IMG/VR virus record: IMGVR_UViG_3300015202_000010
Location: 1-57,733 of that record
Source of the DNA: a virus
Taxonomy: Duplodnaviria > Caudoviricetes
Length of the DNA stretch: 57,733 nt
Reading direction: 5' to 3' (one strand)
Part shown: in pieces, positions 35,481-57,733 of the stretch
How positions within the stretch are numbered: the stretch's first letter is position 1
Layout of the letters: every line of letters starts with the position of its first letter
Program-made: the position numbers and the translations under genes
Notes under the pieces: generated by a model
The model's database searches: none
The model's input: only the letters and a program-made list of their open reading frames with translations
Told to the model about the DNA's origin: nothing

Positions 35481-36809
35481 ATGGGTGCAATTGATCAAAT
35501 CGTAAATATTCAGATCTCACAACAAACCGCTGCCGTCCCACAAGAAGGCTTCGGAGTTCCACTCATCATGGGGCCTTCAAACAGATTCTCGGATCTCGTT
35601 CGATATTACACAGACCCAGCGGATATGCTTGCCGATGGTTTTTTAACTTCTGATCCTGAGTATGTAAAATGCGTTGAGGCTTTCGAGCAAGATCTTCAAC
35701 CAACGCAAGTCGGCATTGGAAAATACAGCGCAGCCGTCGCGCAAGTCGAGACAATCACTCCAGACGTTTCATCACAAACAGTTCAAGTTTATTCGATCAC
35801 AATTAACGGAGTCGCTTACGCTTTCACTTCTGATTCTTCTCCGACTGCTGCGGAAGTTGTTGCGGGTTTGATCGCTCTCATCAATGCGGATGCAAATTGT
35901 GCCTTCGCAGCGACCGGAACAACGATTCTCGTCCTCACGGCAAAACAAGCCGGTGCTGGCGGAACATTTGTTCTTACTTCAAATTTAAACGGCGTTCAAA
36001 CGACTGCAAATCACGGTATCGTTACCGACATCGTAGCTCTCCAAGCTGTTTCTGATATCTGGTACGGCCTCGCGATCTGCTCTGCCCTCGCCTCAGACAT
36101 CGAACAAGTTGCTTCTTATATCGAAACACAATTAAAAATCTTCATCGCTGTAACTGGTGATGCGGCCGTAAAAAATCCTTCAAGCACAACTGACGTTGGC
36201 GCGATCTTGATGGGTAAATCTTACAAGCGCACCGCTCTGGTTTACACAGCGAATCCGCGATCAGGATTAGAGGCTTCATGGTTGGGCGGCGTTCTTCCGA
36301 CAACTCCAGGATCTTCTACATGGAAATTCAAAGGCGCAAAAGGCATCACTACAGATAAATTCTCTCAATCAGATCGCAATGCTTTGATCGGTCAACCTGG
36401 CGTGCCAGGCAAGAACGTAAACATTTTTGAAACTGTTGGCGGACAAAACATTTTCGAAGAGGGTTTCATGTGCGGAGGTCAGTTCATCGACATCACTGTC
36501 GGTATCGACTGGTTGAAATCAACGATGCAAAACAATGTTTTCTCTTTGCTCGTTCAGAACGAAAAAATTCCATACACAGACATCGGCGCGGCGATCATTG
36601 AAAATGCAGTTCGACAAACTCTGAAGCAGGGTGATGACGATACCGGTAGCGGACTCATCGACCATACTTCAATCGTTGTTTCTGCGGCTCCGGTTCTCTC
36701 TCAGCCAACTGCTGACCGAGCGAACCGAATCTACCGTGGTATCAACTGGTCTTGTCGTTTGGCAGGAGCGTTTCATTTCATCGTAATCAAAGGCGTTGTA
36801 ACAGTTTAA
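35481..36809 (+). CDS. Contractile tail sheath (DUF3383)
   Basis: IVNIQIS...GFGVPLI, PGSSTWKFK, FIDI..GIDWL, KIPYTD.G, LAGAFH. Confidence 0.92.
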   Translation: MGAIDQIVNIQISQQTAAVPQEGFGVPLIMGPSNRFSDLVRYYTDPADMLADGFLTSDPEYVKCVEAFEQDLQPTQVGIGKYSAAVAQVETITPDVSSQTVQVYSITINGVAYAFTSDSSPTAAEVVAGLIALINADANCAFAATGTTILVLTAKQAGAGGTFVLTSNLNGVQTTANHGIVTDIVALQAVSDIWYGLAICSALASDIEQVASYIETQLKIFIAVTGDAAVKNPSSTTDVGAILMGKSYKRTALVYTANPRSGLEASWLGGVLPTTPGSSTWKFKGAKGITTDKFSQSDRNALIGQPGVPGKNVNIFETVGGQNIFEEGFMCGGQFIDITVGIDWLKSTMQNNVFSLLVQNEKIPYTDIGAAIIENAVRQTLKQGDDDTGSGLIDHTSIVVSAAPVLSQPTADRANRIYRGINWSCRLAGAFHFIVIKGVVTV

Positions 36810-36825
36810 TTTATAGGAGCATTTC

Positions 36826-37248
36826 ATGAGCGTTAAATCATACGATCCAGGTCAAGTTGCAGTCATCGTTGGCGGCAAAATCATTAGCGGCTTCTCAGAA
36901 GGCACTATGGTTAAAGCATCAAGAAACGATGCGGCCTATTCTTTAAAAGTCGGAGCGGACGGCGAGGGAACTCGCACCCGATCTAGAAACACTTCTGGAA
37001 AGCTTGAGTTCAGTCTCATGCAGTCCTCTGACTCGAACGATTATCTTTCAAGTCTCGCTCTCGCGGACGAAGCTTCAAACGCCGGCACGGTTGCTTGTCT
37101 TATCAAAGACGGCTCTGGTCGATCGGTTTGGGGCGCTCTCACCGCTTGGGTTCAAAAACTTCCAGACGCTGACTTGGCGAAAGAAGTTCAAACCAGAACT
37201 TGGGTTTTAGAGACCGACAACATCACGATTTTTATTGGCGGTAACTAA
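36826..37248 (+). CDS. Tail tube protein (DUF3277)
   Basis: SYDP..V, VGADGE, LMQSS.SN..L. Confidence 0.88.
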   Translation: MSVKSYDPGQVAVIVGGKIISGFSEGTMVKASRNDAAYSLKVGADGEGTRTRSRNTSGKLEFSLMQSSDSNDYLSSLALADEASNAGTVACLIKDGSGRSVWGALTAWVQKLPDADLAKEVQTRTWVLETDNITIFIGGN

Positions 37249-37697
37249 TGGCTAATGAGCTAATCAAGAAAACCATAGACGGTCACGATTACGAGTTCTC
37301 AATCTTTGGAGCGAAGAAATCTATCAAGGTTTTAGTTCGCCTGTCGAAGATTCTCGGAAAGCCGTTTGGTCTTTTGATGGGTTCATTCAAAGGCCCTGGC
37401 AAGATGTTGGAGAGAGAAGTAGATACCGACCTGATGAGTTTAGCGTTCTCCGCTTTGACTGATAATTTAGATTCAGACGAAGTGATTGATATCTTAGAGA
37501 CTCTCGTGGCCGGTGATTACATTCTTTGCGACGGCAAAAAAGTTATTTTCGATACTCATTATGAAGGTCGTCTCGATCACCTAATGAAAGTCGTTATGAT
37601 TGCCCTCGAGGTGCAATACGGAAATTTTTCCGGCGCCATATCCGACCTCCGGCCAGTAAAAAAGAATCATCAGACGATGCAGGAAAATCAAACGTAG
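37248..37697 (+). CDS. Tail assembly chaperone
   Basis: Between tube and TMP; carries slippery A-AAT-TTT at 37622-37628. Confidence 0.8.
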   Translation: MANELIKKTIDGHDYEFSIFGAKKSIKVLVRLSKILGKPFGLLMGSFKGPGKMLEREVDTDLMSLAFSALTDNLDSDEVIDILETLVAGDYILCDGKKVIFDTHYEGRLDHLMKVVMIALEVQYGNFSGAISDLRPVKKNHQTMQENQT

Positions 37698-37846
37698 ATT
37701 GGGTTATTTGGAGGCCCGTAATGGAGGGCCTCGACACACTCTCGAATGTTCAAAACGTGTGGAGTATAACGGATCTTTATGATGCACACGAAGCTTTAGA
37801 TATTAAGGCCGAAATTGAGGCCCATGCACGAGAGGCGGCTAAGTAG
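37628..37846 (+). CDS. -1 frameshift extension of tail assembly chaperone (about 199-aa fusion)
   Basis: -1 frame open for 72 codons: ...VDWVIWRPV...WSITDLYDAHEALD. Confidence 0.75.
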   Translation, partial: FRRHIRPPASKKESSDDAGKSNVDWVIWRPVMEGLDTLSNVQNVWSITDLYDAHEALDIKAEIEAHAREAAK

Positions 37847-38429
37847 CACATGACAACTTTCTTTTCTCCCAAGCCTTTTTGCAAGTCTCTCTTTGTTCAT
37901 TGGACATTTTCTTGCCTTTATTCCAAGACGGTTTCCCTCTTCTTGCAGCAGCCATCTTTTCAATTGTTTCTGAAAAATCTTTTCGTTTTTTTCGATCATA
38001 AACGACTGGATTGTCCAATCGAATTTTTCTCATTTTATCTCGGAACTCGATCGATCGCTTCAATCCTATTTGACCGACGCTTATCTTTTTTTTCGTATTT
38101 TCACTATGCTTTCTTCCTGAGTGAGATCGACTCATTTTTTTCAAAGTTGATTTATGCGTTTGAAAACCTTTCGAGCCTCCGCTTTGTAAGTTGTAGCCTT
38201 TTGACTGATTTGTTGAGTCGAACTTCAAAACAAAAACAGCCTCTTTTTCAAATGCCTCAGACTTCGAATTTGTTTCGAATAAAACTTCAACTTGAAAAGA
38301 TCCATCAAAGATTTGGGGACGTTCGTTTTTATGTTCGGACATCCTCTTTTTTAAGTTTGAAGTGCATCCGATGTAAGATTTTCGACTCTTTAAATTCAAT
38401 ATACGGTAGACTTTATATCTCATGGGCAT
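37839..38429 (-). CDS. GIY-YIG homing endonuclease with NUMOD3 repeats
   Basis: KVYRI...YIG.T....R..EH, E, GYN; HSENTKKKIS. Confidence 0.9.
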   Translation of the reverse strand: MPMRYKVYRILNLKSRKSYIGCTSNLKKRMSEHKNERPQIFDGSFQVEVLFETNSKSEAFEKEAVFVLKFDSTNQSKGYNLQSGGSKGFQTHKSTLKKMSRSHSGRKHSENTKKKISVGQIGLKRSIEFRDKMRKIRLDNPVVYDRKKRKDFSETIEKMAAARRGKPSWNKGKKMSNEQRETCKKAWEKRKLSCAT

Positions 38430-38483
38430 CGTATAGGACGTTATCTATGACAGGTCAATCATTTTTGGGGGTGCCAAATTAAC

Positions 38484-40022
38484 GTGCGAGAAATGTTGAC
38501 CACATGGAATTTTCAGATCAACCACGAGCCTCTCGAAAAGGTTGAAAAAAGTCTTGATGCAATTAAGGAGCGACTCGATTTCTTGGCCGCCGGAGAAGTC
38601 GCAAAAGGTCTCTTCGAAATGGTCGAGAAGTTCGGCCAAATGGCAGAGCAACTCCACCTCGCAAGCGCATCCGCAGGTCTCACTGTCGAAGAAATGCAAC
38701 GCCTCTCATTCTCCGCTCAACAAGCCGGAGTCTCAGCAGAATCCGTTTCGACAGGGATGTTCCGACTCTCGCGCGCGCTTTACAGTGCACGTCAAGGAAA
38801 CGAAGAAGCCCTAAAATCATTTTCAAAACTTGGAATTAGTTCCGACCAACTCACACAATTTAAGACGGCGAAAGACGCTCTCGGGGCAATCTCGGATAGA
38901 ATGCACACCATCAAAGACCCGATCGAGAAAGCCGCTCTCTCAATGGCCCTTTTGGGCCGTGGATCGAGGGACATGGTTGGATGGTTGTCTCAAGGCTCTG
39001 CCTCAATTAAGGCGACCGGAGACAAAGCGTATGTGCTCTCAGAGGATCAGGTCGAAGCTCTCGTGAGTGCCGAGCACACGATGGGTGCATTCTGGAATAT
39101 GATAAAGAACATTGCAGGATCTATCGCTGCTAATTTCGCGCCAGTCCTCGAGCGAGCCGTTCACACCGTCATGGATTTTGTTGCCGCAAATAAACAACTT
39201 ATTGAAAACAATGTGGAGAATTGGCTGAAGGGCCTCGCTTTCATGTTTGGTTTCATCGTCGGCGTCATCGAGAGTGCGGTTTATTGGTTCCTAAAGCTCG
39301 CTCATGCTCTTGGCTTCGAGGATCATATTCTCCAAGCCATCGGACTCTTCGCCGGACTCGTCACGGGAATCCTCGCGTTTAAAACGGCAGCTATGGTGCT
39401 CTCTCCGGTCATCTCTGCGGTATCGAGCGCGTTTGGTATTCTGCAAAAAGCCGTGGGTGCAATAAAATGGATCTGGGGATTCTTCGAAGGACTCGCTGCG
39501 GTAATCGGAGTATCGACCGGAGCCTTAATCGGTATCATCGCCGCCGTGGGCGCTCTCGTCGTCATCGGTCATGACTTATGGCAGGTTTTTCACAACGGCA
39601 AAAGTTTTAAAGACACTTGGATCGGTCAGGGTGCAAAATATATCCAGGATTTGATCGAGAAGTTCACCGGACTTAAACAAATTTTTGGGATGGGTGACAG
39701 TGATAAAAAATCAGCAGAGGAGAACACACCAGGAGCCGGTGTCCTTAAAGGAATTTCTCAAACGCAGGCATTCGGAAATTCTCTTATGCCTAATCTTACT
39801 GGCAATCCTGCTTATGGAAGTGCAGCACTGACTCCTGACTTTGGATTCGGTGTTACTCCGGCGACCTCACAAAATCAGATCAACGCTCCAGTCACAATCA
39901 ACGTTCCTCCAAACACTCCTCCTGAGCAGGTTGGAAAGCACGTTCAAATGGGAATCAAAGATCATCTCGACAGCGTGATGAGAGAAACGAAACGCAGTCT
40001 CACTCCGGCGGTGGCTCACTAA
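38484..40022 (+). CDS. Tape measure protein
   Basis: Ala/Gly-rich helical protein with hydrophobic segments; synteny. Confidence 0.85.
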   Translation: MREMLTTWNFQINHEPLEKVEKSLDAIKERLDFLAAGEVAKGLFEMVEKFGQMAEQLHLASASAGLTVEEMQRLSFSAQQAGVSAESVSTGMFRLSRALYSARQGNEEALKSFSKLGISSDQLTQFKTAKDALGAISDRMHTIKDPIEKAALSMALLGRGSRDMVGWLSQGSASIKATGDKAYVLSEDQVEALVSAEHTMGAFWNMIKNIAGSIAANFAPVLERAVHTVMDFVAANKQLIENNVENWLKGLAFMFGFIVGVIESAVYWFLKLAHALGFEDHILQAIGLFAGLVTGILAFKTAAMVLSPVISAVSSAFGILQKAVGAIKWIWGFFEGLAAVIGVSTGALIGIIAAVGALVVIGHDLWQVFHNGKSFKDTWIGQGAKYIQDLIEKFTGLKQIFGMGDSDKKSAEENTPGAGVLKGISQTQAFGNSLMPNLTGNPAYGSAALTPDFGFGVTPATSQNQINAPVTINVPPNTPPEQVGKHVQMGIKDHLDSVMRETKRSLTPAVAH

Positions 40023-45989: not shown

Positions 45990-48089
45990 ATGAACAGACC
46001 AGATAGTTACTTAAATTGGACCGATGGCAATTCGACGAAAGTAATCGACCCACCTTCGGGACTCAAATTTCAAGGTTGGTCTCCGGGACAAGCTCCACCC
46101 TCACAATATTTCAACTGGTTGCTATGGAAAACCGATCAATGGATTCAATATTTTGATGAGATCACAAATTCAGGTGTGCCCGAGCAAGCAATTCGACTCA
46201 TCAACGGCGGTTTTTTAGGATTCAACTCTCAATCGAATATTTTAAAGTGGAGTGATATTCTCAACATCGCAATTCCAGGCTCTCCAGACTCGGCGAACGC
46301 AATTGCGGCCGGAAATGTTACTCTCGCAGACGGTTATCTAGCTTACGTCGCCCTTGTTTTGCCGGTCATCGCTTCTGGTAACTTGGTAAACGGCTCCGAC
46401 ATGATTACGGCTCTGAATTATACCGGCAATCTCTCGATCGGAATGACAATTTTAGGAAACGGTATCCCTTCTGGCGCGACAATTCTCGCGGTCAGCACGA
46501 ATAGCGTTCAAATGTCGGCTCCGGCAACCGCAGACGTGAATAATAACGTCATGCTTTTCTCAACTGTAAACTCTCTGACGGTTCAAACCGCTCAAGCAAA
46601 TACTTTTATCCCTGACACCGATCATCTAGTCATCGCTCGACGAGTTGGCGGAAGAGTTTTCATCGGCATCAACGCGAACATCATGGTTTTGCAAAACGGA
46701 GAGTCGAAGAAACTTCTCGAGACAGGATATTTACAAACTTACGACGACGTAATCGCCGGGGAGAATATCAGTGCAGGACAAGCAGTCTACGTTTCTCCTG
46801 GAGGATCAGCCGATGGTGGCAGAACTGTTGGGCAAGCTTATCTTTTGGATTGTTCTGCTGGTAATGGTCAGAGAAGCTTCTTCGCAGGTATCGCGATCGA
46901 AACGACAACAGCGGGAAACGCACTCTCTTTAGTTTTTACAGGATTTGCTAATTTCACAAGCCTAACTCCTGGCGCGGTTTATTACGGAAGTGATACGGTC
47001 CTCGGAGGACTCACAACTCCAAAGCCGTCGTCTGTCGGCGCGAGTATCATGCCGGTTGGCGTGGCCGTCTCTGCGACAAAACTTTTGATGACCACAGCAG
47101 AGGGTGTCGTCGGTCCTCAGAATCAATCAATTTTTGAAGCCGAGAAAATCGGCGTCGGTAACGGAGTGACAACTTCGTTCCCTTTGACACAAACTCCTCT
47201 CAATCAGAACTCAACTTTTATCTTCGTTGACGGAATGCTTTTAAATCCGAGCGAGTGGTCTTTGAGCGGTTTAAATGTCGTGCTAAATACGCCTCCGGCT
47301 CCGGCCCAAGCTGTAGACGCACAATATATTCAGGCAAATCAACTCGACATCTCAGCAATGCAAGAAATCCCAACGAAAGTTGCTCCTTCGACTTACCAAT
47401 TGGCGGGAATGCCTCTCAATCAAAATTCGATGATGGTTTTTATCGACTCTTTGAGAGCTTCACCGAATGCATACAGTCTCGTTTTAGGATCGAACAGCGC
47501 GCAAATTGTTTTGAATACGGACTTAACTCCTGGACAAACAATCGAAGTTCTTTACTTCCAAAATATTGCCGGCAACGGCGGCTTCGGCACCGTGACTGCT
47601 GGATCGAATGAAGGCTCTGGACACGCTATTTTTGATACAATCGTTGCTGGTGTCATGAAGTTTTTCAGTTTAAAGGCTGGAGGCTCGACCAGTATCGCAA
47701 ACGACGGACATGGCAACTTAGTGATCTCTTCGACTGGAGGTTCAGGCGGTTCTTCCCGACAAGTGTATGGAGACCCGACCACACCAGAAACTTTCGATCC
47801 GACGTCTGGACTTGTCGCAGGTGCTGAGATGGATCAAACTTGGATCATCGAACCACCTGGCGGAGCAGTGCCTGTGACTGCCGCCGCCCAAATTCAGAAC
47901 GGCACGATTGTCGGTCAGAGATTAACATTGCGCGGACTGAGCCCGGTCAATTACTACGAATTTCAAGGGCTCGCAGGATCTGTTGTCGCCAATTTATCTT
48001 TAGACGGCAATTGTCAGGTGACCGACAACCAAGCGTTGACGGTTGAGTGGGACGGGACTCTTTGGTTTGAGGTTTGTAGACGTTCTTAA
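45990..48089 (+). CDS. Main tail fibre (baseplate-anchored, no signal peptide)
   Basis: N-terminal anchor GW.PGQAPP.QYFNWL...W.QY; mosaic beta domains. Confidence 0.8.
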   Translation: MNRPDSYLNWTDGNSTKVIDPPSGLKFQGWSPGQAPPSQYFNWLLWKTDQWIQYFDEITNSGVPEQAIRLINGGFLGFNSQSNILKWSDILNIAIPGSPDSANAIAAGNVTLADGYLAYVALVLPVIASGNLVNGSDMITALNYTGNLSIGMTILGNGIPSGATILAVSTNSVQMSAPATADVNNNVMLFSTVNSLTVQTAQANTFIPDTDHLVIARRVGGRVFIGINANIMVLQNGESKKLLETGYLQTYDDVIAGENISAGQAVYVSPGGSADGGRTVGQAYLLDCSAGNGQRSFFAGIAIETTTAGNALSLVFTGFANFTSLTPGAVYYGSDTVLGGLTTPKPSSVGASIMPVGVAVSATKLLMTTAEGVVGPQNQSIFEAEKIGVGNGVTTSFPLTQTPLNQNSTFIFVDGMLLNPSEWSLSGLNVVLNTPPAPAQAVDAQYIQANQLDISAMQEIPTKVAPSTYQLAGMPLNQNSMMVFIDSLRASPNAYSLVLGSNSAQIVLNTDLTPGQTIEVLYFQNIAGNGGFGTVTAGSNEGSGHAIFDTIVAGVMKFFSLKAGGSTSIANDGHGNLVISSTGGSGGSSRQVYGDPTTPETFDPTSGLVAGAEMDQTWIIEPPGGAVPVTAAAQIQNGTIVGQRLTLRGLSPVNYYEFQGLAGSVVANLSLDGNCQVTDNQALTVEWDGTLWFEVCRRS

Positions 48090-48110: not shown

Positions 48111-48953
48111 ATGAAGGCAATTTTTTTAGTAATGTTCTTTATCGGTCTAACGGCAAACGCGGCTTCAAACCGCGTGATCTCAGCAGACCAAATCCAATCA
48201 TCAGACGCGACAAAGACTTACACTCTTCCGGCCGCAACTGATACTATCGTCGGTCGCGCAACTTCAGATACTTTGACGAATAAAACTCTCACAAGTCCTT
48301 CAATCACGACTCCAACTGGAATCGTTAAGGGTGACGTCGGTCTCGGAAACGTAGACAACACTTCTGATGCGACAAAAAACTCAGCGACAGCAACTCTCAC
48401 AAATAAATCAATTTCAGGCGCGACAAACACTCTCACTGCGATCCCAGCAGCAACCGCTCTTTCAGGGACTGTCCCTGTAGCGAATGGCGGTACGGGTTCT
48501 GCTTCTTTGACTTCAGGCTCAGTGGTTGTCGGTAACGGAGCTTCTGCGGTCAGCCTCGTTGCTCCGGGAACTTCTGGAAACGTGCTCACTTCAAACGGAA
48601 CCACATGGTCGAGCACTGCGCTCCCAGCGACGGTCCCAACTATTACTGGCTCTCAAGCGTCTCCAACTGCGATCACTGCGGCTGGCGGAGTTCCTTTTTC
48701 TGGATCAAATTATAGCAATTCAATCTACGTTTCGACTGCTTCTGGAAACGTGACCGTGACTGCGACTCCCCAAGTCGTTGCAGGTACTTTGGTGGGTCAG
48801 GTTTTGAGCATTATTGGAACCAGCGCATCGAATACAGTTACCCTTGCGGATGGCAGTGGTTTGAGCTTAAATGGACCTATCACCATTGGAAACAACAGCG
48901 CTATTATTTTACAGTGGAACGGGGCTTCGTGGTACGAGATTTCACGCCGATAA
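48111..48953 (+). CDS. Fibre-like protein A with Sec signal peptide
   Basis: MKAIFLVMFFIGLTANA|AS; TLTNKT repeats, GLGNVDNTSD, VANGGTG fibre motifs. Confidence 0.75.
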   Translation: MKAIFLVMFFIGLTANAASNRVISADQIQSSDATKTYTLPAATDTIVGRATSDTLTNKTLTSPSITTPTGIVKGDVGLGNVDNTSDATKNSATATLTNKSISGATNTLTAIPAATALSGTVPVANGGTGSASLTSGSVVVGNGASAVSLVAPGTSGNVLTSNGTTWSSTALPATVPTITGSQASPTAITAAGGVPFSGSNYSNSIYVSTASGNVTVTATPQVVAGTLVGQVLSIIGTSASNTVTLADGSGLSLNGPITIGNNSAIILQWNGASWYEISRR

Positions 48954-49330
48954 TTTCAAGAAGAGACAAATTTTTGTCTTTGTTTAAGCAGGCTGATCCC
49001 GCAGATTGTTGGGATTGGCTTGGACATATTGATGCTTACGGATATGGAGTTCTCAGTATTTTTGGTAAAAAATATAAAGCTCATAGAATTTCTTATTTTT
49101 TTAAAAACAACTCTTTAGATGAGAATCTTTTAGTTTGTCACTCTTGCGACAATAGAAAATGCGTAAATCCAAATCACTTGTGGCTTGGAACTAATAAGCA
49201 AAATTCTAAAGATTGCGTCGAGAAGGGTAGACATAAAAGTTGGTTCTCGAGTGATAAGTATAAGTTACTTTTAGTAACTAAACGTCATGCGCTTTCAAGA
49301 TCAAGAGACGCTGGTGGAAAATTTGTTTAA
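48914..49330 (+). CDS. HNH homing endonuclease
   Basis: CWDW.G....GYG...KAHR...VCHSCDNRKCVNPNHL..GT...N..D; start uncertain. Confidence 0.88.
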   Translation: MERGFVVRDFTPIISRRDKFLSLFKQADPADCWDWLGHIDAYGYGVLSIFGKKYKAHRISYFFKNNSLDENLLVCHSCDNRKCVNPNHLWLGTNKQNSKDCVEKGRHKSWFSSDKYKLLLVTKRHALSRSRDAGGKFV

Positions 49331-49940
49331 ATTATTATTTATTCTTTTATTTTCAAGCCATGCCTTCTCATCGACACTTAGAACGGTAGCTGCCGATTCT
49401 CTCACGTCGTCTGATTTAACGAAAACATACGCGCTCCCAGCGGCTTCAGACACAATTGTCGGCAGATCCAGCACAGACATTCTCACAAATAAATCAATCG
49501 ACGCGACAACGAACATCATTTCGAACCTCACAAACTCAAACCTCACTTCTTCAGCCGCAATTTCTTTATCAAAGCTCGCTCCTCTAACGAATGGAAGTCG
49601 AGCACTTTCATCTTCTGCCGGCGGTCTCATTCAAGAGTCTGCAACGACATCGACAGAGCTTGGATATTTGAGCGGCGTCACGAGTTCGATTCAAACTCAA
49701 ATAAATGCAAAATTTTCGGGAACCTTCACCCAGGAGATTCCCACGGGCGCTTGCAACGGGACAAATACGACAGTCACTTTGTCGTTCACTCCTTCGTCTG
49801 CGAATGCGGTTTCTTTATATTTAGACGGTTTCATGCTTACTCAGGGAACTGGACTTGAATACACGATCTCGGGAGCGACAATAACTCTCGCGAGCGCGTG
49901 TGGTACCGGTCAAATTTTGTATGCGAATTATACACACTAA
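49323..49940 (+). CDS. Fibre-like protein B with Sec signal peptide (paralog of A)
   Basis: TTG start 49323 after GGTGGA RBS; MFKLLFILLFSSHAFS|ST; N-terminus aligns with A. Confidence 0.75.
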   Translation: MFKLLFILLFSSHAFSSTLRTVAADSLTSSDLTKTYALPAASDTIVGRSSTDILTNKSIDATTNIISNLTNSNLTSSAAISLSKLAPLTNGSRALSSSAGGLIQESATTSTELGYLSGVTSSIQTQINAKFSGTFTQEIPTGACNGTNTTVTLSFTPSSANAVSLYLDGFMLTQGTGLEYTISGATITLASACGTGQILYANYTH

Positions 49941-49952
49941 CGAGGTGGACAA

Positions 49953-52322
49953 ATGAATCGAACGATCAGCTTTTTACTCAGCTTCTTAATTGCGTTTCAG
50001 ACGAATTTCGCTCTCGCAAAGGGCAAAATTCAGAATGAAGATGTAAAATCTCTCGCTGAAATTCAAGCGGCGGTCACGACAACAGGAACTCTGACAAGCG
50101 GATCAGCTTGCGTCAGCTCTGTTGGATCTTTAACCGGACTCTCTGCCGGACTCTTCGTTTACGACACGACAGTTTCAACGGCGATTGCGGCCGGAACTAC
50201 GATCACGGCCATTCCGGGAACTTGTTCTGCCGGTCAAATTCAACTTTCTGCGAACGCGGTCGCATCTGGTTCTGCTCAAACTCTCACTTTCGGTGGTCAA
50301 GCTTCACAACTTATAAATGATTCGAAAATTTGGTTGGCGGCTCTCACGCCTTCACAGACTTTGTCTAGCGCGATCACAACGGGCTCTCTCGGCGGTGGTT
50401 CTGGCGGATCAAAAAACTACTTAACAAGCTACAAAGGAAATACCGGAAACGGAAATTTCGAATTCGGCAACACGACTGGATTTACTTTAGGTCACGTTGC
50501 TTTGACTAATAATTTCCCTAGCGGTACACCGACTTTCGGTTCTGGCGCTTCAGGTTCTCTTTCTTTATCGGTAACTTCTTCAAGTCCAATCGCTGGAACG
50601 TATTCAGGAATGTATATCTCAAGTGCCGCGACAGCGGCTGGAGATTTCGTCGCTTCGAATGCATACAATATTGATCTCGCAGATCAAGCAAAAGTCAGCA
50701 CATTCAAATTCTCTTATTCAATTCCATCAGGATTAACGAACGTCAATCTCTCAGGCACAAGCGCGAACTCGTATGGCGTCGCAATCTATGACGTAACGAA
50801 CGCTGTTTTTATTCAACCAGCAGGAACATTCAATCTAGTTCAGGGAACCGGAATCGGAACTGCGGTTGGAACTTTTCAAACAAGTTCAAATGGAACTGCA
50901 TACAGAATCGTCGTCTATAATGCGAATGCGACTGCGGGCGCTGCGACTCTTTCGTTGGATGATATTTCTGTTGGTCCACAATCTTTTAATCAAACTCAAA
51001 TCGGAGTTGTTGGTCAAATTATCGCGACTGGATCGGTAACTCCTCCGGTCGGATATTTATACGCGAATGGATCTGCTGTTTCTAGATCTCAATATGCGGA
51101 TTTATTTTCGGTAATCGGAACAACTTACGGTGTTGGTGACGGATCTACCACATTCAATTTACCTAATTTACAAGGTGTTTTCGCTCGCGGTGCTGGTACT
51201 CAGACTGTCGGCGGCATCACACAAGCTGCAACTTTAGGTGCGACTCAAGGCGATCAACTACAAGGTCACTATCATACAGGTGGTTCGATTTATAAATATC
51301 TCGGGTCGGGCGGTACTTTTAGCGTCTCAACTATAGGCGGCGCAAACGACACCAACACCTCGGTTGGTGCGCCTATAAGTGATGGCACTAACGGAACTCC
51401 GAGAACTGGTACTGAAACTCATCCAGCCAACGTCGCCGTTGCATATCACATTTGTTATTTGAAAACTGCGCAAGCAAGTTCAGACACCGACACTCGCGTC
51501 GTTGCAATTAGCGTAAATGGTTCGGCGACATTCAACGGTTCTTCTAGTGCAATTCAATATCCGATTTCTGCAACGGTCGATACTCATTCTGCTGTTGCCT
51601 CGAATCAAATCATCGTTCCTGTAAGCGGTTATTATGCGATCACAGGCACTCAATCGAACAACGTCTCTGGTGGTCAAAATAATTTCAACGTCAGTCGAAA
51701 TGGTTCTTCGATCATGGGTTGGCAGCTTAATAATAACTCTGGAAACGGAAACAGATATACGACCAGTGACGTGATTAAGTTCAATGCTGGAGATGTGATC
51801 TTATTCACAGGATGGCAAAACTCTGGTTCATCAGCAGGACAGCAAATGTCTTTCGCTATGAATAAATTATCTGGCCCATCGACGCTTTTAGCGAGCGACT
51901 CTGTTATTGAAAAATGGAATACGTCCGTAACCTCAGTTGTTGCTTCAGGTGTTGGCGTGGTTCTTTACACTAATAAAATTAAATCAACTCACGGCGCTTA
52001 TAATTCGTCCACAGGACTTTTTACAGCTCCGATTTCAGGCACCTATTTAATTGCAGGAACATTTACTGGAAATACTGTTTCTGGTTCAAATGGATTAAAT
52101 TATCTCTATTTGGAGAAAAATGCGGGACTAGATACTTTGATAGGATCATGCACGAGTAATACGATTACAACGACGTTAGCTTGTTCTGGATCAACTCTGG
52201 TTTCTCTAAATCAAGGAGAAACAGCTTCGATTGCTTTTTATGATAACTCAGCTCAAACAATTAGTGCATCAGGAACCGGATCTAACACGAATTCTATTTC
52301 AATTGTTCGCGTAGGAAATTAG
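49953..52322 (+). CDS. Fibre-like protein C with signal peptide, tail-collar domain and C1q-like domains
   Basis: MNRTISFLLSFLIAFQTNFALA|K; collar motif GSAVSRSQYADLFSVIGTTYG.GDGSTTFNLPNL.G.F.RG; QGHYH; FTAPISGTY. Confidence 0.8.
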   Translation: MNRTISFLLSFLIAFQTNFALAKGKIQNEDVKSLAEIQAAVTTTGTLTSGSACVSSVGSLTGLSAGLFVYDTTVSTAIAAGTTITAIPGTCSAGQIQLSANAVASGSAQTLTFGGQASQLINDSKIWLAALTPSQTLSSAITTGSLGGGSGGSKNYLTSYKGNTGNGNFEFGNTTGFTLGHVALTNNFPSGTPTFGSGASGSLSLSVTSSSPIAGTYSGMYISSAATAAGDFVASNAYNIDLADQAKVSTFKFSYSIPSGLTNVNLSGTSANSYGVAIYDVTNAVFIQPAGTFNLVQGTGIGTAVGTFQTSSNGTAYRIVVYNANATAGAATLSLDDISVGPQSFNQTQIGVVGQIIATGSVTPPVGYLYANGSAVSRSQYADLFSVIGTTYGVGDGSTTFNLPNLQGVFARGAGTQTVGGITQAATLGATQGDQLQGHYHTGGSIYKYLGSGGTFSVSTIGGANDTNTSVGAPISDGTNGTPRTGTETHPANVAVAYHICYLKTAQASSDTDTRVVAISVNGSATFNGSSSAIQYPISATVDTHSAVASNQIIVPVSGYYAITGTQSNNVSGGQNNFNVSRNGSSIMGWQLNNNSGNGNRYTTSDVIKFNAGDVILFTGWQNSGSSAGQQMSFAMNKLSGPSTLLASDSVIEKWNTSVTSVVASGVGVVLYTNKIKSTHGAYNSSTGLFTAPISGTYLIAGTFTGNTVSGSNGLNYLYLEKNAGLDTLIGSCTSNTITTTLACSGSTLVSLNQGETASIAFYDNSAQTISASGTGSNTNSISIVRVGN

Positions 52323-52342
52323 TTTTAACAAAATGAGGCTCG

Positions 52343-53746
52343 ATGAAAAAAAACATATTATATTTTATAATATATATATTGTGTTTCTCGAGCTTTCTTC
52401 GAGCTGACACTCCACCGCCGCAAAATATCTCGGTTAAAGCCGACAATATTACTTCTGTTGGCGGAATCACAATCACTCTCGGTCAAAAAACATCCGCTCT
52501 TTCATGGCCCGTCGTACTTCCAAGCGATCAATTGTGGGCCACATCTACTTTGCAAACGACTGCGAATAATTCTCTCACCTCGATAGCAACAAATACTTTG
52601 AACACGTCAAATTATTTAAGTGGTATTAGTGTCATTTCAACGGCAGCGCTTCAAACTACAGAAAACGGAATTCTTACTCAGATCGCGAACAATACGGCGT
52701 CTGCCTTAACTGACGTTACAAATAGCGGAAACATAACTTCGGCCTGCACCGTCGCTTCTTCATGCGCAGCGAGTTCTTTTGTAAATGTTGCTTCGCAAGG
52801 TCAATACACAGTCGGAATTTCAGTTACTGGAACTTTCGTTGCTGCATATTTGGTTGAAGGTCAAAATGCAGACAGCACATGGACTACGTTACCAATGTTT
52901 ATAACTCAGGCGGGTGTGGTACCATATCCTGTTTCGAATGCCCTCGCCGGTGCCGCTCAAGTAATTGTTATCGGTGGTGCGTATCAAAATATTAGAGTGC
53001 GATGTTATTCTTATACTTCAGGAACAATTTCGACGGCAATAGATGCCTCGATCGCTCAACAAGCAGTTCTATCTGCTCAACTTGGGCCTTGGTATATGCA
53101 AGGCAACGTCGCTTCTGGCACGACTGATTCTGGCAACGGAATAAAGGTTGCGGGAGTTGCTCAAGCTCAATATGCACTTCCTTCTTTTACAACTGGTCAG
53201 CGATCAGATCATCCGACAGATTTAAAAGGCAGACAATATGCAGCTCCAGATTCTGGTAAAGCAACATATTCTGCCGCCTTCACGGGAGCGACTTCAGGCA
53301 TTGCTGCGACTGATGTTTTTACTATTTTCGGTTCAGCTTCTAAAAAAGTTGTCATCACTAGAATCGGTTTCTCTGGAACCATAACGACTGCCGCCTATAT
53401 TTCTACGATCGTAAATAAAAAGACAGCGGTTAACGTCGGAGGCATCAGCTCTGCTGTCGCAATAACTCCTCATGATTCAACATCAGCGACCGCAACGGCA
53501 ACCGTACTTTCCTACACCGTAAACCCGACGACGATTGGTGCAGCTTCAGCGTTGAGATCAATAAAATGGTTTATTCCAGCTACTGGTACCGGACAAATTC
53601 AAAATGAACCTGAGTTTCAATTCAACACTTCAGGCGATAAGGGCATTGTTCTTAATTCAGCAACCGAAGGTGTCTCTATAAATATGAACGGCTCATCATT
53701 GACTGGAAACAGTATGAGTTATTTTGTAGAATGGACTGAGGAATAA
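52343..53746 (+). CDS. Fibre/appendage-like protein D with signal peptide
   Basis: MKKNILYFIIYILCFSSFLRA|DT; Ser/Thr/Ala/Gly-rich beta domains. Confidence 0.7.
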   Translation: MKKNILYFIIYILCFSSFLRADTPPPQNISVKADNITSVGGITITLGQKTSALSWPVVLPSDQLWATSTLQTTANNSLTSIATNTLNTSNYLSGISVISTAALQTTENGILTQIANNTASALTDVTNSGNITSACTVASSCAASSFVNVASQGQYTVGISVTGTFVAAYLVEGQNADSTWTTLPMFITQAGVVPYPVSNALAGAAQVIVIGGAYQNIRVRCYSYTSGTISTAIDASIAQQAVLSAQLGPWYMQGNVASGTTDSGNGIKVAGVAQAQYALPSFTTGQRSDHPTDLKGRQYAAPDSGKATYSAAFTGATSGIAATDVFTIFGSASKKVVITRIGFSGTITTAAYISTIVNKKTAVNVGGISSAVAITPHDSTSATATATVLSYTVNPTTIGAASALRSIKWFIPATGTGQIQNEPEFQFNTSGDKGIVLNSATEGVSINMNGSSLTGNSMSYFVEWTEE

Positions 53747-55029: not shown

Positions 55030-56277
55030 ATGGCAGCAGTAATTAAACCCCTACTGATTGAATATCAGTCGAAGAATAATGTCACCGGCCTTACGGACGT
55101 AAAAGCGCAGGTATATCTGAATGGCGTCGCAAAAGCAGTTGGTGCATCAGCAATCGTTCTCACAGAGATCGACGCTACAAATGCTCCAGGTTTTTATCTA
55201 TTAACAATTTCCGCTGCCCTCCAAACGACTTGGGGCGTTTCAAACGCTCAAGCGAATTTCATTCACGGAGATATTGATTCAGTAACTCAACCTGCGAGTG
55301 CGCCTTTTCGCTCTCAGGTAACCGTTGCCTCTACTGATGATCTCGACACGAAATTAGGGACTCCAGCCGGAGCTTCTGTTTCTGCTGACATCCTGACTCT
55401 TTCAACAAAAGTCGGAACGCCTGCGGGAGCATCTGTAAGTGCCGACATTGCAGCCGTTAAGTCTGACACCGCCGCAATCAAAACAGATCTTGAAACCGGA
55501 GCTAATTCACTCGCGACAATTAATGCGAATATTTTAGCTTTAGCAAATGGTTCGATTGCGAACGGCGTAGGTTATGTTCTTCCGAACATGCTCATCCCTG
55601 CGAGCGGTTCGAATTCATATCGCATTCCAATCACGATCGTAAACAATGATGGCGCACTCATCGACCCGACAGGAAATACCGTCACAGTTGGTTTATTGAA
55701 TGCAGCGGGAGTTGATCGCGGTTCGTTCTTAACAGGTTCTTCCGGCTCTCCAGCTCAAATTGCAGCGACTCGAATCAGTGTTGGTCAGTATTATGTGATG
55801 GTTGCTATTCCTAGCACCGAAGTTGAAGAAGATCTTTTATTTAGTTTCGCATATACCATTGGTACGAATGCAATGGTTCGTTATGGTCAATCGCAAGCGA
55901 CGACAGATTTAGGTTCTTCAGGTTTTGCTCTGCAATCGACTTTGCTCGCAACTCAAACTGCTGTAAATGCGATCAAAGCTGACGTAGAAAATGCAACGAC
56001 TGGTCTCATTAACATCGAGACGATCGCGGCAGCAGTACAAACTTCGATCAATAACGGAACCTACGGCCTTTCGGCATTGCAAACAATTGCTGCCTCGATA
56101 CAATCGACCGTAAATAATGGTACTTACGGTAACTCAGCTCTTCAAACGCAAAACGTGGCGACTCAAGCACAGAATACTGCGTCTCAAGGATCTGGTTTTG
56201 CTACAGCAACAGATAGTTTGCACGCCTTATCTGTGTTCGTGAGATCAAATCTTTTCTCTGGCGGCAGAGCGGTTTAA
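55030..56277 (+). CDS. Structural protein with internal repeats (fibre/whisker-like)
   Basis: GTPAGASVSADI x2 and NNGTYG.SALQT x2. Confidence 0.7.
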   Translation: MAAVIKPLLIEYQSKNNVTGLTDVKAQVYLNGVAKAVGASAIVLTEIDATNAPGFYLLTISAALQTTWGVSNAQANFIHGDIDSVTQPASAPFRSQVTVASTDDLDTKLGTPAGASVSADILTLSTKVGTPAGASVSADIAAVKSDTAAIKTDLETGANSLATINANILALANGSIANGVGYVLPNMLIPASGSNSYRIPITIVNNDGALIDPTGNTVTVGLLNAAGVDRGSFLTGSSGSPAQIAATRISVGQYYVMVAIPSTEVEEDLLFSFAYTIGTNAMVRYGQSQATTDLGSSGFALQSTLLATQTAVNAIKADVENATTGLINIETIAAAVQTSINNGTYGLSALQTIAASIQSTVNNGTYGNSALQTQNVATQAQNTASQGSGFATATDSLHALSVFVRSNLFSGGRAV

Positions 56278-57163: not shown

Positions 57164-57450
57164 ATTTCGAGTCTGAGGAGCAGCGTAAAGATTTCGGTGC
57201 TCTCGCGATTTGGCTTAGACAACACAGAGTCAGTGACAACGCGATTCGCTATGTAGACGTTTACCTTATGCAAAAAATGAGGGACGTCTCAGAGTGGATC
57301 ATTGAGAGCAACGCCACACAGATTACACTGTTGCAAAACGAATTAAAGTCCACGCTCGATATAGTCGAAGAGTTGAAAAACGAGATCGAACTATTAAAGG
57401 CGGCCCAAAATGAACGAAACTCCTTGGATGCTTTGGCTCCTGAGATATGA
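57157..57450 (+). CDS. Hypothetical coiled-coil protein
   Basis: ORF between structural genes and endolysin. Confidence 0.55.
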   Translation: MLNFESEEQRKDFGALAIWLRQHRVSDNAIRYVDVYLMQKMRDVSEWIIESNATQITLLQNELKSTLDIVEELKNEIELLKAAQNERNSLDALAPEI

Positions 57451-57733
57451 AGGTCAGCACGAGTTAGCTGGCGACCAAGACAATCCTTTCATCATGTCAC
57501 TTTACAAATACGGCCATTATCAAGCGACGCACGACGAAGTTCCATGGTGCGCTTGTTGCGCAAATGCGGCCCTTGAGATCAACGGATTCATCGGAACCGG
57601 GCGAGCTGACGCTTTATCTTTTGCGACTTGTGGTGACGCTTCTGAACTCAAATACGGAGCCATCATTGTCATTCAACATCCAAAAGGCGGACACCACGTC
57701 ACATTCTTTTCGAAATGGGTAGACCAAAGCAAA
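57410..57733 (+). CDS. Endolysin, TIGR02594/NlpC-P60 (CHAP-like) family, N-terminal part; runs across the genome join
   Basis: ATG at 57410: MNETPWMLWLLRYEGQHELAGDQDNPFI...DEVPWCACCAN...GGHHVTF; not in the ORF track because the contig end splits it. Confidence 0.85.
   Translation, partial: MNETPWMLWLLRYEGQHELAGDQDNPFIMSLYKYGHYQATHDEVPWCACCANAALEINGFIGTGRADALSFATCGDASELKYGAIIVIQHPKGGHHVTFFSKWVDQSK
57530..57733. repeat. Terminal direct repeat (copy 2)
   Basis: Starts cacgacgaagttccatgg like position 1 and ends gaccaaagcaaa like position 204. Confidence 0.95.

What the first reader, a model, noticed from the sequence alone, without database searches (positions are those of the whole stretch)
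48111..53746. Four tail-fibre-like genes carry cleavable Sec signal peptides
Seen: proteins at 48111, 49323, 49953 and 52343 each start with a basic residue, a hydrophobic core and a small-residue cleavage site (ANA|A, AFS|S, ALA|K, LRA|D). Their bodies are fibre-type: TLTNK repeats, GLGNVDNTSD, a tail-collar domain with an HxH motif and C1q-like domains. Three have closely spaced Cys pairs (GACNG/SACG; SACV/GTCS and GSCT/LACS; SACT/SSCA), consistent with disulfides formed outside the cytoplasm. Established: tailed-phage virions assemble in the cytoplasm and their fibres normally lack signal peptides, whereas Bdellovibrio-type bacteria export phage-fibre-like trimeric adhesins. Inference: either these receptor-binding appendages are exported, folded in the periplasm and added to the virion during or after lysis, or they are late-expressed host-surface adhesins or decoys. 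Either would be an unusual system.
Basis: partly seen in the sequence, partly recalled or inferred. Interest (0 to 1): 0.9.

Follow-up and report, generated by a model that had tools for sequence, protein, structure and literature searches.

The report
Phage tail fibres carrying export signals
A complete 57.5-kb contractile-tailed phage follows its ordinary tail-fibre gene with four fibre-like genes that each begin with a textbook secretion signal; many unrelated uncultured phages share this cassette, so part of their host-recognition gear seems to be made outside the cytoplasm, which I found described for no tailed phage.

Summary
ORFs at 48111, 49323 (TTG; alternative ATG 49287), 49953 and 52343 begin with n/h/c-type leaders. 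By my own rule, 6 of 97 ORFs in the window have one, and four sit within a five-gene run (p about 0.001).

The leaders are conserved as a feature, not as sequence. Of 77 full-length relatives of the first protein, 73 have one. A small-x-small site lies at a fixed distance from a conserved Arg in 36 of 36 aligned sequences. Cysteines in the mature proteins come in pairs.

The order signal-less "anchor" fibre, SP1, SP2, SP3, lysis genes recurs in at least 10 other loci. These include phages with unrelated terminases and baseplates.
- SP1 models as an intertwined trimer.
- SP3 has a conserved N-terminus and variable collar plus two TNF/C1q heads.
- SP4 has a XepA/YomS-fold domain.

Export to the periplasm is very likely (about 0.8). 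The proteins' fate is open. I slightly favour exported "branch" fibres that dock on the anchor fibre at lysis (0.38) over off-virion envelope-binding proteins (0.32).

No trained predictor or experiment was available, and the host is unknown. My searches found nothing like this in print. This scan has already noted the same pattern on other phage DNA.

The parts
45990..48089 (+). F0: signal-less 'anchor' tail fibre, 699 aa. It has a fibre-type N-terminus, two internal copies of an anchor-like domain, and a C-terminal beta-sandwich ending W.E..RR.
   Evidence: Residues 19-52 match phrog_2126, tail fiber (E 4e-5). There is no hydrophobic N-terminus. Its C-terminal 89 aa are 33% identical to the C-terminus of SP1 (E 1e-12). 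Residues 388-448 resemble the C-terminus of SP2 (E 9e-6). Its C-terminal part travels with the cassette in other phages.
48111..48953 (+). SP1: 280-aa exported fibre protein. It has a leader (48111-48161), a conserved new N-terminus, shaft repeats and a C-terminal beta-sandwich.
   Evidence: Homotrimer model of residues 18-280: ipSAE 0.88 against 0.00 for the best control.
48914..49330 (+). HNH homing-type endonuclease gene inserted between SP1 and SP2, overlapping both.
   Evidence: Pfam HNH_3 (E 1e-6); phrog_1872 and phrog_3593 (E 4e-25 and 1e-22).
49323..49940 (+). SP2: 205-aa exported fibre protein from a TTG start (leader 49323-49370). Its N-terminus is paralogous to SP1, and its C-terminal 64-aa domain is like the internal domain of F0.
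   Evidence: 49% identity to SP1 over the first 59 residues. Start-site evidence. Orthologues all carry leaders, and the two Cys co-vary: both present in 2 of 6 orthologues, both absent in 4 of 6.
49953..52322 (+). SP3: 789-aa exported long fibre. It has a leader (49953-50018), a conserved N-terminal part with the Cys53/Cys91 pair, a beta-sandwich (175-343), a tail collar (354-410) and two TNF/C1q heads (515-641, 649-789).
   Evidence: VIA Z 17.1 (rmsd 2.3 A over 130 aa, 4ous) and Z 15.3 (rmsd 1.9 A over 122 aa, 6bwv_B).
52343..53746 (+). SP4: 467-aa exported protein. It has a leader (52343-52405), a low-confidence linker, a XepA-C/YomS-fold domain (121-237) and a C-terminal jelly roll (306-467).
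   Evidence: VIA Z 14.2 (rmsd 2.0 A over 104 aa, 6i56_A) and Z 13.0 (6i5o_A). The ATG start is backed by GAGG and by orthologues with leaders.
57410..57733 (+). Start of the leaderless endolysin gene. It continues at 205-345 across the 204-nt terminal repeat, which places the cassette upstream of the lysis genes.
   Evidence: phrog_1259 lysozyme part; terminal repeat.

Best explanation
The four N-termini are genuine Sec signal peptides cut by signal peptidase I.

The phage makes one ordinary, signal-less anchor fibre (F0) in the cytoplasm, where it can sit on the baseplate. Late in infection it sends a set of anchor-less trimeric fibre proteins through the inner membrane, and these fold and form disulfides in the periplasm. 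SP1 and SP2 are conserved, connector-like pieces. SP3 is the long receptor-binding piece, with a conserved N-terminal part and variable collar and TNF/C1q heads.

My preferred reading is that this exported set forms the distal 'branch' of the fibre apparatus. It would dock, through the new N-termini made by cleavage, on F0-bearing particles only when the holin opens the inner membrane, in the seconds before the outer membrane goes.

SP4 may be a separate, XepA-like exported late protein.

Shown by computation: the leaders, their conservation, the paired cysteines, the conserved gene order, the SP1 trimer model and the folds. Inferred: export itself, cleavage, the periplasmic disulfides and the docking at lysis.

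I put export alone at about 0.8 and the whole chain at the confidence given.
For: Leaders
- The h-region scores, the Shine-Dalgarno sites and the clustering of four leaders in five genes support real signal peptides.

SP1 family
- 2551 proteins have E <= 0.001 among 8000 candidates scored. Of the 120 listed, 101 have a hydrophobic N-terminus; 104 of 119 pass my stricter rule.
- Of the 77 covering at least 90% of the query, 73 pass (my tally).
- In 36 aligned sequences, the residue 4 before the conserved Arg is A (33) or G (3). The residue 6 before it is A25, S4, V3, T2, L1, G1. Leader lengths are 16-22.
- Cys counts in the mature parts of relatives with leaders are 0 (57), 2 (41), 4 (1) and odd (3).

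SP3
- 24 listed proteins carry the motif that follows the cut. Of these, 22 pass the hydropathy rule, one more looks like a leader by eye, and one starts at the motif.
- Identity to the window protein is 28% in the leader, 66% in residues 23-60 and 21-25% beyond residue 346. Cys53 and Cys91 are kept in 18 of 19 sequences. A conserved docking end with a variable tip is the usual make-up of a receptor-binding fibre.

Cassette
- SP3-type genes are directly preceded by an SP2-type gene in 10 further loci: L004, L161, L189, L190, L191, L166, L171, L200, L167, L205.
- An SP1-type gene precedes that in the 9 of these that reach far enough.
- A signal-less fibre precedes that in L004, L161, L189, L190 and L205.
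- Only L190 has baseplate proteins like the window's (24-38% identity). Yet SP1 is 47-53% and SP3 61% identical in loci whose baseplates give no hit.
- The complete genomes behind L004 and L002 have no match to this terminase.
- A complete GenBank podovirus, MW202898.1, has only a 305-aa F0-type fibre followed by a 917-aa fibre with a leader-like start 11 codons inside its annotated frame.

SP1 trimer
- Score 0.88, best of 3 controls 0.00. The mark was reached by 20 of 30 proteins solved as pairs of one chain and by 1 of 23 solved as single chains. These counts hold only roughly, because I used my own alignment and three copies.
- The runs share at least 97% of contacts, and the partner's pLDDT is at least 91.
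- Solved trimeric fibres exist, so the pass may come partly from likeness to them.

Operon
- The late operon is tight, with no excess of promoter- or terminator-like sites.

Recalled, not from a call
- T4 fibres attach last and can be added to fibreless particles in vitro.
- Canonical holin lesions are very large.
- Anchor-branch fibre systems exist in G7C, SP6/K1-5 and Klebsiella podoviruses.
Against: - There is no experiment and no trained signal-peptide predictor. My rule cannot tell a cleaved leader from a signal anchor: it flags the membrane protein at 403-888.
- No docking between F0 and any SP protein was tested, because my one complex job went on the SP1 trimer.
- The usual N-terminal virion anchor of signal-less relatives is replaced by the leader. 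That fits a destination other than the particle.
- The C-terminal domains of F0 and SP1 do not co-evolve within a phage.
- One relative, P0188, starts at the mature SP3 motif without a leader.
- The database gene call for SP4 starts at TTG 52379 and drops the leader.
- XepA, whose fold SP4 shares, is reported as exported and absent from particles (PMC6834076, passages). This is a precedent for an off-virion fate.
- No cultured phage carries a full-length relative, so no virion proteome can be consulted.
- The host is unknown.
- Joining a particle within seconds at lysis has no precedent.
Confidence: 0.38

Rival explanations
1. The proteins are exported but never join the particle. The trimeric, lectin-like proteins would stay in the envelope of the infected cell or be shed at lysis. 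There they would bind envelope glycans or other envelope parts, for example to help lysis or release (XepA-like), to mask receptors on debris, or to block superinfection.
For: - Export is as well supported as under the best explanation.
- The virion-anchor N-termini of signal-less relatives are replaced by leaders.
- SP4 residues 121-237 have the XepA-C/YomS fold (Z 14.2 and 13.0, with the next row at 8.8).
- XepA is described as a late protein, exported and not in mature particles, encoded beside the lysis genes (PMC6834076, passages).
- The cassette abuts the lysis genes in every locus that reaches them.
- Bdellovibrio shows that signal-bearing phage-like fibres can work as cell-surface adhesins (PMC10769870, passages).
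Against: - SP1 and SP2 are conserved connector-like proteins, and SP3 has the conserved-N, variable-tip make-up of a virion fibre.
- The cassette always travels with the distal part of an anchor fibre.
- In podovirus MW202898.1 the only long fibre is the one with the leader.
- No enzyme domain was found.
- The tip shared by SP1 and F0 does not track its own phage, which speaks against masking of the phage's own receptor.
Confidence: 0.32
2. The hydrophobic N-termini are not cleaved export signals. They would act as signal anchors that tether the fibres to the inner membrane. Alternatively, export would fail late in infection, and the fibres would be assembled on particles in the cytoplasm as usual.
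For: - My rule cannot separate anchors from leaders: it flags the multi-span protein at 403-888.
- No trained predictor was run.
- P0188 lacks the leader.
- One automated gene call skips the SP4 leader.
Against: - A small-x-small site lies at a fixed distance from the conserved Arg in 36 of 36 sequences, and leaders are short at 16-22 residues.
- Cys occur in pairs in 42 of 45 Cys-bearing relatives with leaders.
- A positive n-region would put the body outside the cytoplasm even if the leader were not cleaved.
- The segment just after the cut is the best-conserved part of SP3.
Confidence: 0.15
3. These are lysogenic-conversion genes. The fibres would be displayed on the surface of a lysogen as adhesins that benefit the host, as MAT fibres serve Bdellovibrio.
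For: - An anti-repressor gene suggests a temperate ancestry.
- MW202898.1 has an integrase-type recombinase.
- MAT fibres share the design of leader, trimeric shaft and TNF-like tip.
Against: - The genes lie 0-21 nt apart inside the late operon, with no excess of promoter- or terminator-like sites.
- No integrase was seen among the ORFs I scanned.
- The nearest clusters in the Atlas are all viral.
- None of the 78 best loci from species-representative genomes held a full-length SP1.
Confidence: 0.07
4. This is chance or mis-annotation: wrong start codons or fortuitous hydrophobic stretches.
For: The SP2 start is uncertain (ATG 49287 or TTG 49323). One database gene call for SP4 starts downstream of the leader.
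Against: - Shine-Dalgarno sites lie before the leader-including starts.
- Leaders are present in 73 of 77 full-length SP1 relatives and in the SP2, SP3 and SP4 orthologues at other loci.
- The clustering has p about 0.001.
Confidence: 0.03

Closest known systems
Bdellovibrio bacteriovorus MAT (mosaic adhesive trimer) fibres (Caulton et al. 2024, PMC10769870; passages read)
   Same: Both have a signal peptide followed by a conserved N-terminal part, an intertwined trimeric beta-rich shaft and exchangeable tips. Those tips include TNF-like domains. Both resemble phage fibres.
   Different: MAT genes belong to a predator's chromosome, and the proteins sit on its surface. [quoted passage not shown] Here the genes sit in a phage late operon after the baseplate genes, and the conserved stretch after the cut runs straight into shaft repeats. 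No sequence link was found: no PDB chain matches the SP1 profile, and only EMILIN-1 and a long tail fibre match SP3. The MAT N-domain itself could not be compared.
Anchor-branch receptor-binding systems of podoviruses (G7C gp66/gp63.1, SP6/K1-5 adaptor, Klebsiella KP32/KP34 types) and the multi-protein T4 long tail fibre gp34-37 (all recalled, no call)
   Same: A short virion-anchored fibre gene is followed by further fibre genes. Their conserved N-termini dock on the first protein and their tips vary. T4 fibres are assembled apart from the particle and added last.
   Different: None of these carries a signal peptide, and all are assembled in the cytoplasm. Docking here is inferred, not tested.
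XepA of the PBSX element and YomS of SPbeta, Bacillus subtilis (PMC6834076; abstract and passages read)
   Same: Each is a late protein encoded between tail-fibre and lysis genes. XepA is reported as exported beyond the membrane and absent from particles. SP4 residues 121-237 share the XepA C-domain/YomS fold (Z 14.2 and 13.0).
   Different: The host is Gram-positive. XepA is a pentameric dumbbell with no fibre shaft and no TNF-like head. Sequence identity is 6-16%. I did not check whether XepA has a classical leader. The match concerns SP4 only.
Signal-peptide genes of Porphyromonas gingivalis phages (Matrishin et al. 2023, PMC10367356; passages read)
   Same: Phage genes with Sec leaders are read as a use of the host's general secretion system.
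   Different: In that paper they are genes of unknown function, spanins and capsid proteins. 'Tail fiber' occurs 0 times in its text.

Membership tests
Sec-type signal peptide cut by signal peptidase I | Positive n-region, uncharged hydrophobic h-region of about 7-15 residues, and a leader of about 15-30 residues | tested here: met
   MK-, MFK-, MNR- and MKK- starts. Kyte-Doolittle means are 2.6-3.1. Leaders are 16-22 aa in the window and in 36 relatives. These are my heuristics only.
Sec-type signal peptide cut by signal peptidase I | Small, uncharged residues at -3 and -1 of the cut | tested here: met
   The sites are ANA|A, AFS|S, ALA|K and LRA|D. In the SP1 family, -1 is A33/G3 and -3 is A25/S4/V3/T2/L1/G1, out of 36.
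Sec-type signal peptide cut by signal peptidase I | The feature is kept in relatives while the sequence drifts | tested here: met
   73 of 77 full-length SP1 relatives have a leader. Identity is 22% in the leader against 43% after it. For SP3 it is 28% against 66%.
Sec-type signal peptide cut by signal peptidase I | Actual translocation and cleavage | not testable with these tools
   This needs PhoA fusions, fractionation or N-terminal proteomics.
Lipoprotein (signal peptidase II) or Tat signal | A lipobox with Cys at +1, or a twin-arginine motif | tested here: not met
   By eye on the sequences. There is no [LVI][ASTVI][GAS]C before the cut: the SP4 Cys14 is preceded by Y-I-L. There is no RR in any n-region.
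Virion tail fibre / receptor-binding protein | Trimeric fibrous shaft | tested here: met
   The SP1 18-280 homotrimer model scores 0.88 against a best control of 0.00. This was tested for SP1 only.
Virion tail fibre / receptor-binding protein | Recognised fibre domains and a place in the tail module | tested here: met
   Collar and C1q domains and tail-fibre PHROGs. The genes lie directly after the baseplate wedge and F0.
Virion tail fibre / receptor-binding protein | N-terminal domain that anchors the fibre to the particle | tested here: not met
   Signal-less relatives of the SP3 and SP4 bodies have ordinary fibre N-termini. In the SP forms these are replaced by the leader plus a short conserved stretch.
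Virion tail fibre / receptor-binding protein | Presence in purified particles | not testable with these tools
   No cultured phage has a full-length relative.
MAT superfamily (Bdellovibrio) | A signal peptide followed by the conserved beta-rich domain of about 130 aa | tested here: inconclusive
   A leader is present. The conserved part after it runs into shaft repeats within about 40 residues. No MAT N-domain sequence was on hand to compare.
MAT superfamily (Bdellovibrio) | Encoded by the predator and displayed on its surface | tested here: not met
   The window is a complete virus genome. The nearest Atlas clusters are all viral. Surface display is not testable.
XepA / YomS | C2-like beta-sandwich fold of the XepA C-domain | tested here: met
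   SP4 residues 121-237: Z 14.2, rmsd 2.0 A over 104 aa (6i56_A); Z 13.0 (6i5o_A); the next unrelated row is at 8.8. The model's pLDDT there is 87-95.
XepA / YomS | Pentameric disc or dumbbell assembly | not tested
   No oligomer model of SP4 was made.
C1q / TNF-like head | Jelly-roll fold of the gC1q/TNF type at the fibre tip | tested here: met
   Pfam C1q at residues 669-767, E 5e-6. Residues 649-789: Z 17.1 to the Caprin-2 C1q domain. Residues 515-641: Z 15.3 to 4-1BBL. The model's pLDDT there is about 60-80.

The most novel reading that the evidence does not exclude
In a large, uncultured share of tailed phages the particle is not finished in the cytoplasm. The receptor-binding branch of the tail fibre is exported by Sec, trimmed by signal peptidase and disulfide-bonded in the periplasm. 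It snaps onto a cytoplasmically built anchor fibre only in the moments after the holin opens the inner membrane.
Probability: 0.35. Interest if true: 0.9.

Novelty: new variant of a known kind. Interest (0 to 1): 0.72.

Why it matters
Textbook tailed-phage assembly takes place wholly in the cytoplasm. A conserved, horizontally mobile cassette of exported fibre proteins would add a second compartment to it, whichever way it works.
- If the proteins join the particle, they add a late, extracytoplasmic assembly step with oxidative folding.
- If they do not, they are a new class of exported fibre-like late proteins acting on the envelope.

Either way this bears on several practical matters:
- how host range is read from phage genomes;
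- how receptor-binding proteins should be expressed for engineering, that is, in the periplasm and with disulfides;
- gene calling, since one automated call here drops a leader.

It also suggests a possible evolutionary link between phage fibres and the exported MAT adhesins of predatory bacteria.

The family is large: 2551 hits for SP1 alone among the candidates scored. It has no cultured member, so a directed isolation or a heterologous test is now well defined.

Tried and rejected
Relatives among cultured phages
- A megablast of 20 kb of the structural module found no match.
- tblastn of SP1 hit only shaft repeats, plus one C-terminal domain in MW202898.1.
- tblastn of SP4 found nothing, and SP3 matched only through its collar.
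- The terminase is about 43% identical to those of phages of many phyla, which says nothing about the host.

Relatives through the baseplate protein
- 14 pattern matches in viral contigs, none confirmed.

Host
- The genome-contig scan used generic shaft patterns. It returned 78 loci from many phyla, none with a full-length SP1 by my HMM check.
- Five of those genomes were searched and no taxonomy is given for them.
- A search centred on a named phylum is not possible.
- L161, L190 and L205 are not held as genomes.
- No tRNA genes were found.
- The host stays unknown. A lipoprotein at 985-1218 and lipoproteins beside the lysis genes of other loci point to a diderm host.

Other negative or weak results
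- A PDB sequence search with the SP1 profile gave 0 hits at E <= 1.
- Pfam at E <= 1 adds nothing credible to F0, SP1, SP2 or SP4.
- The 'decoy of own tip' idea was tested by comparing C-terminal domains and is weakened.
- Independent expression as a moron: no support from the promoter and terminator scan.
- In the SP3 model, residues 344-512 (the collar region) have pLDDT of about 25 and say nothing.
- In the SP4 model, residues 17-100 are below pLDDT 50.

Literature
- Five full-text searches listed no paper describing signal peptides on fibres of tailed phages.
- I read passages of PMC3556154 and PMC13001222. In both, the signal-related terms I searched concern lysis proteins or methods.
- I also read passages of PMC10367356.
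- PMC12494034 and PMC8812541 only cite XepA.
- Supplements were not opened. The supplementary tables of PMC10769870 list MAT-like proteins of other bacteria and might bear on kinship.

Not used: the look-up of sequencing runs, read laying, and the Rfam and RNA tools.

Full report
**What the window is.** It is an IMG/VR virus record of 57,733 nt, which CheckV rates 99% complete. Bases 1-204 repeat exactly at 57530-57733, so the genome is circular or terminally redundant, with about 57.5 kb of unique sequence. It encodes a contractile-tailed phage:
- terminase, portal and major head protein;
- sheath, tape measure, baseplate hub and baseplate wedge;
- RecET-type recombination genes, a DnaB-like helicase and an anti-repressor on the other arm.

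No tRNA genes were found. No cultured phage is close at the DNA level.

**The observation.** After the baseplate genes comes a 699-aa fibre without a leader, F0 (45990-48089). Its N-terminus matches a tail-fibre PHROG. Then follow SP1 (48111), an HNH endonuclease gene (48914-49330), SP2, SP3 (49953) and SP4 (52343), spaced 0-21 nt apart.
- Each SP protein starts with a basic residue, an uncharged hydrophobic core and a small-x-small site. The best 10-residue hydropathy means are 2.6-3.1.
- GGAG or GAGG precedes the ATG of SP1, SP3 and SP4.
- SP2 most likely starts at TTG 49323, which has GGTGGA upstream. The ATG at 49287 has no Shine-Dalgarno.
- By a stricter rule of my own, 6 of 97 ORFs are positive, and four lie in one five-gene run. 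Only 138 of 100,000 label shuffles reach this.
- That rule also flags the protein at 403-888, which has two more membrane segments. It therefore cannot tell leaders from anchors, and no trained predictor was available.

**Are the leaders real? Comparative evidence.**

*SP1.*
- SP1 has 2551 relatives at E <= 0.001 among the 8000 candidates scored.
- Of the 120 listed, 101 have a hydrophobic N-terminus. By the stricter rule, 104 of 119 do.
- Of the 77 that cover at least 90% of SP1, 73 pass. Of the four that fail, three look like leaders by eye and one is cut short inside the leader (my tally).
- The relatives without leaders are mostly partial matches to the shaft repeats.
- In an alignment of 36 sequences, the residue four before a conserved Arg is A (33) or G (3). 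The residue six before it is A, S, V, T, L or G, and the leaders are 16-22 residues long.
- Identity is 22% in the leader and 43% in the next 30 residues.
- Mature parts of relatives with leaders hold 0 (57), 2 (41), 4 (1) or an odd number (3) of cysteines.

*SP2.* Its orthologues at other loci all have leaders. Their two cysteines are either both present (2 of 6) or both absent (4 of 6).

*SP3.*
- 24 listed proteins carry the motif that follows the cut. Of these, 22 pass the hydropathy rule, one more is leader-like by eye, and one (P0188) starts at the motif itself.
- Hits that share only the middle beta-sandwich have ordinary fibre N-termini.

*SP4.*
- 3106 representatives match, mostly through the C-terminal domain.
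- 18 of 149 listed have leaders by the strict rule, including orthologues with the same DTPP start after the cut.
- The database's own gene call for SP4 begins at TTG 52379 and drops the leader. The Shine-Dalgarno and the orthologues favour the ATG.

**What the proteins are.**
- *SP1.* Residues 18-280 model as an intertwined homotrimer from the first mature residue. The score is 0.88 and the best of 3 controls is 0.00. The mark was reached by 20 of 30 proteins solved as pairs of one chain and by 1 of 23 solved as single chains. These counts hold only roughly here, because I used my own alignment and three copies. The runs agree in at least 97% of contacts, and the partner's pLDDT is at least 91. 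Likeness to solved fibres may contribute to the pass. Its C-terminal beta-sandwich is paralogous to that of F0 (33% identity, E 1e-12).
- *SP2.* It shares its first 59 residues with SP1 (49% identity). It ends in a 64-aa domain that also occurs inside F0 and at the N-terminus of other phages' fibres (phrog_18673; also the F0-type fibre of MW202898.1).
- *SP3.* It has a Pfam Collar and a C1q domain. In a low-confidence model (mean pLDDT 56) there are two tandem TNF/C1q-fold heads: Z 17.1 for residues 649-789 and Z 15.3 for residues 515-641. Across 17 orthologues, identity to the window protein is 66% in residues 23-60, 51% in residues 151-345 and 21-25% beyond residue 346. Cys53 and Cys91 are kept in 18 of 19 sequences.
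- *SP4.* In a model of mean pLDDT 75, it has a domain (121-237) with the fold of the XepA C-domain and YomS: Z 14.2 and 13.0, with the next row at 8.8. It also has a C-terminal jelly roll.

**The cassette elsewhere.** The order SP1, SP2, SP3 recurs widely.
- An SP3-type gene is directly preceded by an SP2-type gene in L004, L161, L189, L190, L191, L166, L171, L200, L167 and L205.
- An SP1-type gene precedes that in the nine of these loci that reach far enough.
- A signal-less fibre ending in the same kind of C-terminal domain precedes that in L004, L161, L189, L190 and L205.
- Holin-like, lipoprotein and lysozyme genes follow.
- Only L190 has baseplate proteins like the window's (24-38% identity). 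Yet SP1 is 47-53% and SP3 61% identical in loci whose baseplates give no hit.
- The complete genomes behind L004 (35 kb) and L002 (54 kb) have no match to this terminase.
- The N-termini of F0 come in three unrelated types, while its distal part travels with SP1-SP3.
- A complete GenBank podovirus, MW202898.1, has only a 305-aa F0-type fibre followed by a 917-aa 'caprin-2 domain protein'. That frame holds a leader-like start 11 codons in.
- The nearest Atlas clusters are all viral.

**Interpretation.** I take export as very likely, about 0.8. The destination is open.

For a virion role:
- the fibre architecture;
- the conserved-N, variable-tip pattern of SP3;
- the connector-like conservation of SP1 and SP2;
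- the constant company of an anchor fibre;
- the podovirus whose only long fibre bears the leader.

This resembles anchor-branch fibre systems and the multi-part T4 fibre, which is added last (both recalled). A leaderless endolysin implies a canonical holin, and I recall that its large lesions would let particles meet periplasmic proteins before the outer membrane breaks.

For an off-virion role:
- the usual virion anchor is replaced by the leader;
- XepA is a precedent, as a late, exported protein absent from particles (PMC6834076);
- no tailed phage is known to finish its particle outside the cytoplasm.

The idea that SP1 is a decoy copy of the phage's own tip is weakened. SP1 tips resemble each other across phages (51-57%) more than the F0 tip of the same phage (31-46%). 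A lysogen-expressed adhesin is unlikely, given the tight late operon with no excess of promoter- or terminator-like sites.

My odds:

| Reading | Probability |
|---|---|
| Exported branch fibres that dock at lysis | 0.38 |
| Exported but off-virion | 0.32 |
| Uncleaved anchor or failed export | 0.15 |
| Lysogenic-conversion adhesin | 0.07 |
| Artefact | 0.03 |

**Comparison with what is known.** MAT fibres of Bdellovibrio share the design: a leader, a conserved N-part, a trimeric shaft and swappable tips that include TNF-like ones. They are cellular, however, and have an N-domain of about 130 aa (PMC10769870, passages). I could not test membership and found no sequence link. XepA/YomS is a fold-level relative of one SP4 domain only. 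Five full-text searches found no description of signal peptides on fibres of tailed phages. The nearest paper reports leaders on Porphyromonas phage genes of unknown function and does not mention tail fibres (PMC10367356).

**Earlier notes of this scan.** Unchecked AI notes from this scan describe the same pattern in other uncultured phages, including 'stub fibre followed by signal-bearing fibres'. I treat them as leads, not as support.

**Verdict.** The cassette is a conserved, mobile unit of uncultured phages. Export is the best-supported step, and the final location of the proteins is the open and interesting question.

Noticed in passing
window 1-204 and 57530-57733: There is an exact 204-nt direct repeat at the two ends. 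The record is classed 'linear', but the genome is circular or terminally redundant and complete. The endolysin gene runs across the junction (57410-57733, then 205-345).
   Followed up: yes
window 48914-49330: An HNH homing-type endonuclease gene is wedged between SP1 and SP2 and overlaps the end of one and the start of the other. SP2 seems to have been left with a TTG start. A second HNH gene lies at 24132-24584.
   Followed up: partly
window 403-888 and 985-1218: Two genes follow directly after the endolysin. One is a 161-aa protein with a leader-like start, a Pro/Ala-rich stretch and two more membrane segments. The other is a 77-aa lipoprotein with a lipobox ending in Cys. They may be holin or spanin parts. 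The lipoprotein points to a diderm host.
   Followed up: partly
window 52343-52381: The public protein collection holds SP4 only from TTG 52379 (455 aa), without its leader. Automated start calls can hide such signals.
   Followed up: partly
window 55030-56277: A 415-aa protein has near-identical tandem repeats (GTPAGASVSADI twice) and an Ala/Thr-rich, probably fibrous body. It has no family match beyond a faint PHROG hit.
   Followed up: no
L207 (MW202898.1) 34856-38486: This is a complete GenBank podovirus. Its 305-aa tail fibre starts with the anchor-like domain found at the C-terminus of SP2, and ends in the F0/SP1-type domain. The next gene (917 aa, annotated 'caprin-2 domain protein') has a leader-like start 11 codons inside the annotated frame.
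   Followed up: partly
window 23802-24044 (- strand): An 80-aa ORF has a leader-like N-terminus and several cysteines. It lies upstream of the packaging genes and has no family match.
   Followed up: no
L189 7013-9277: In a related myovirus the SP4-type gene (754 aa, leader, same DTPP start after the cut) lies after the lysozyme gene, not next to SP1-SP3. SP4 is therefore not a fixed member of the triad.
   Followed up: partly
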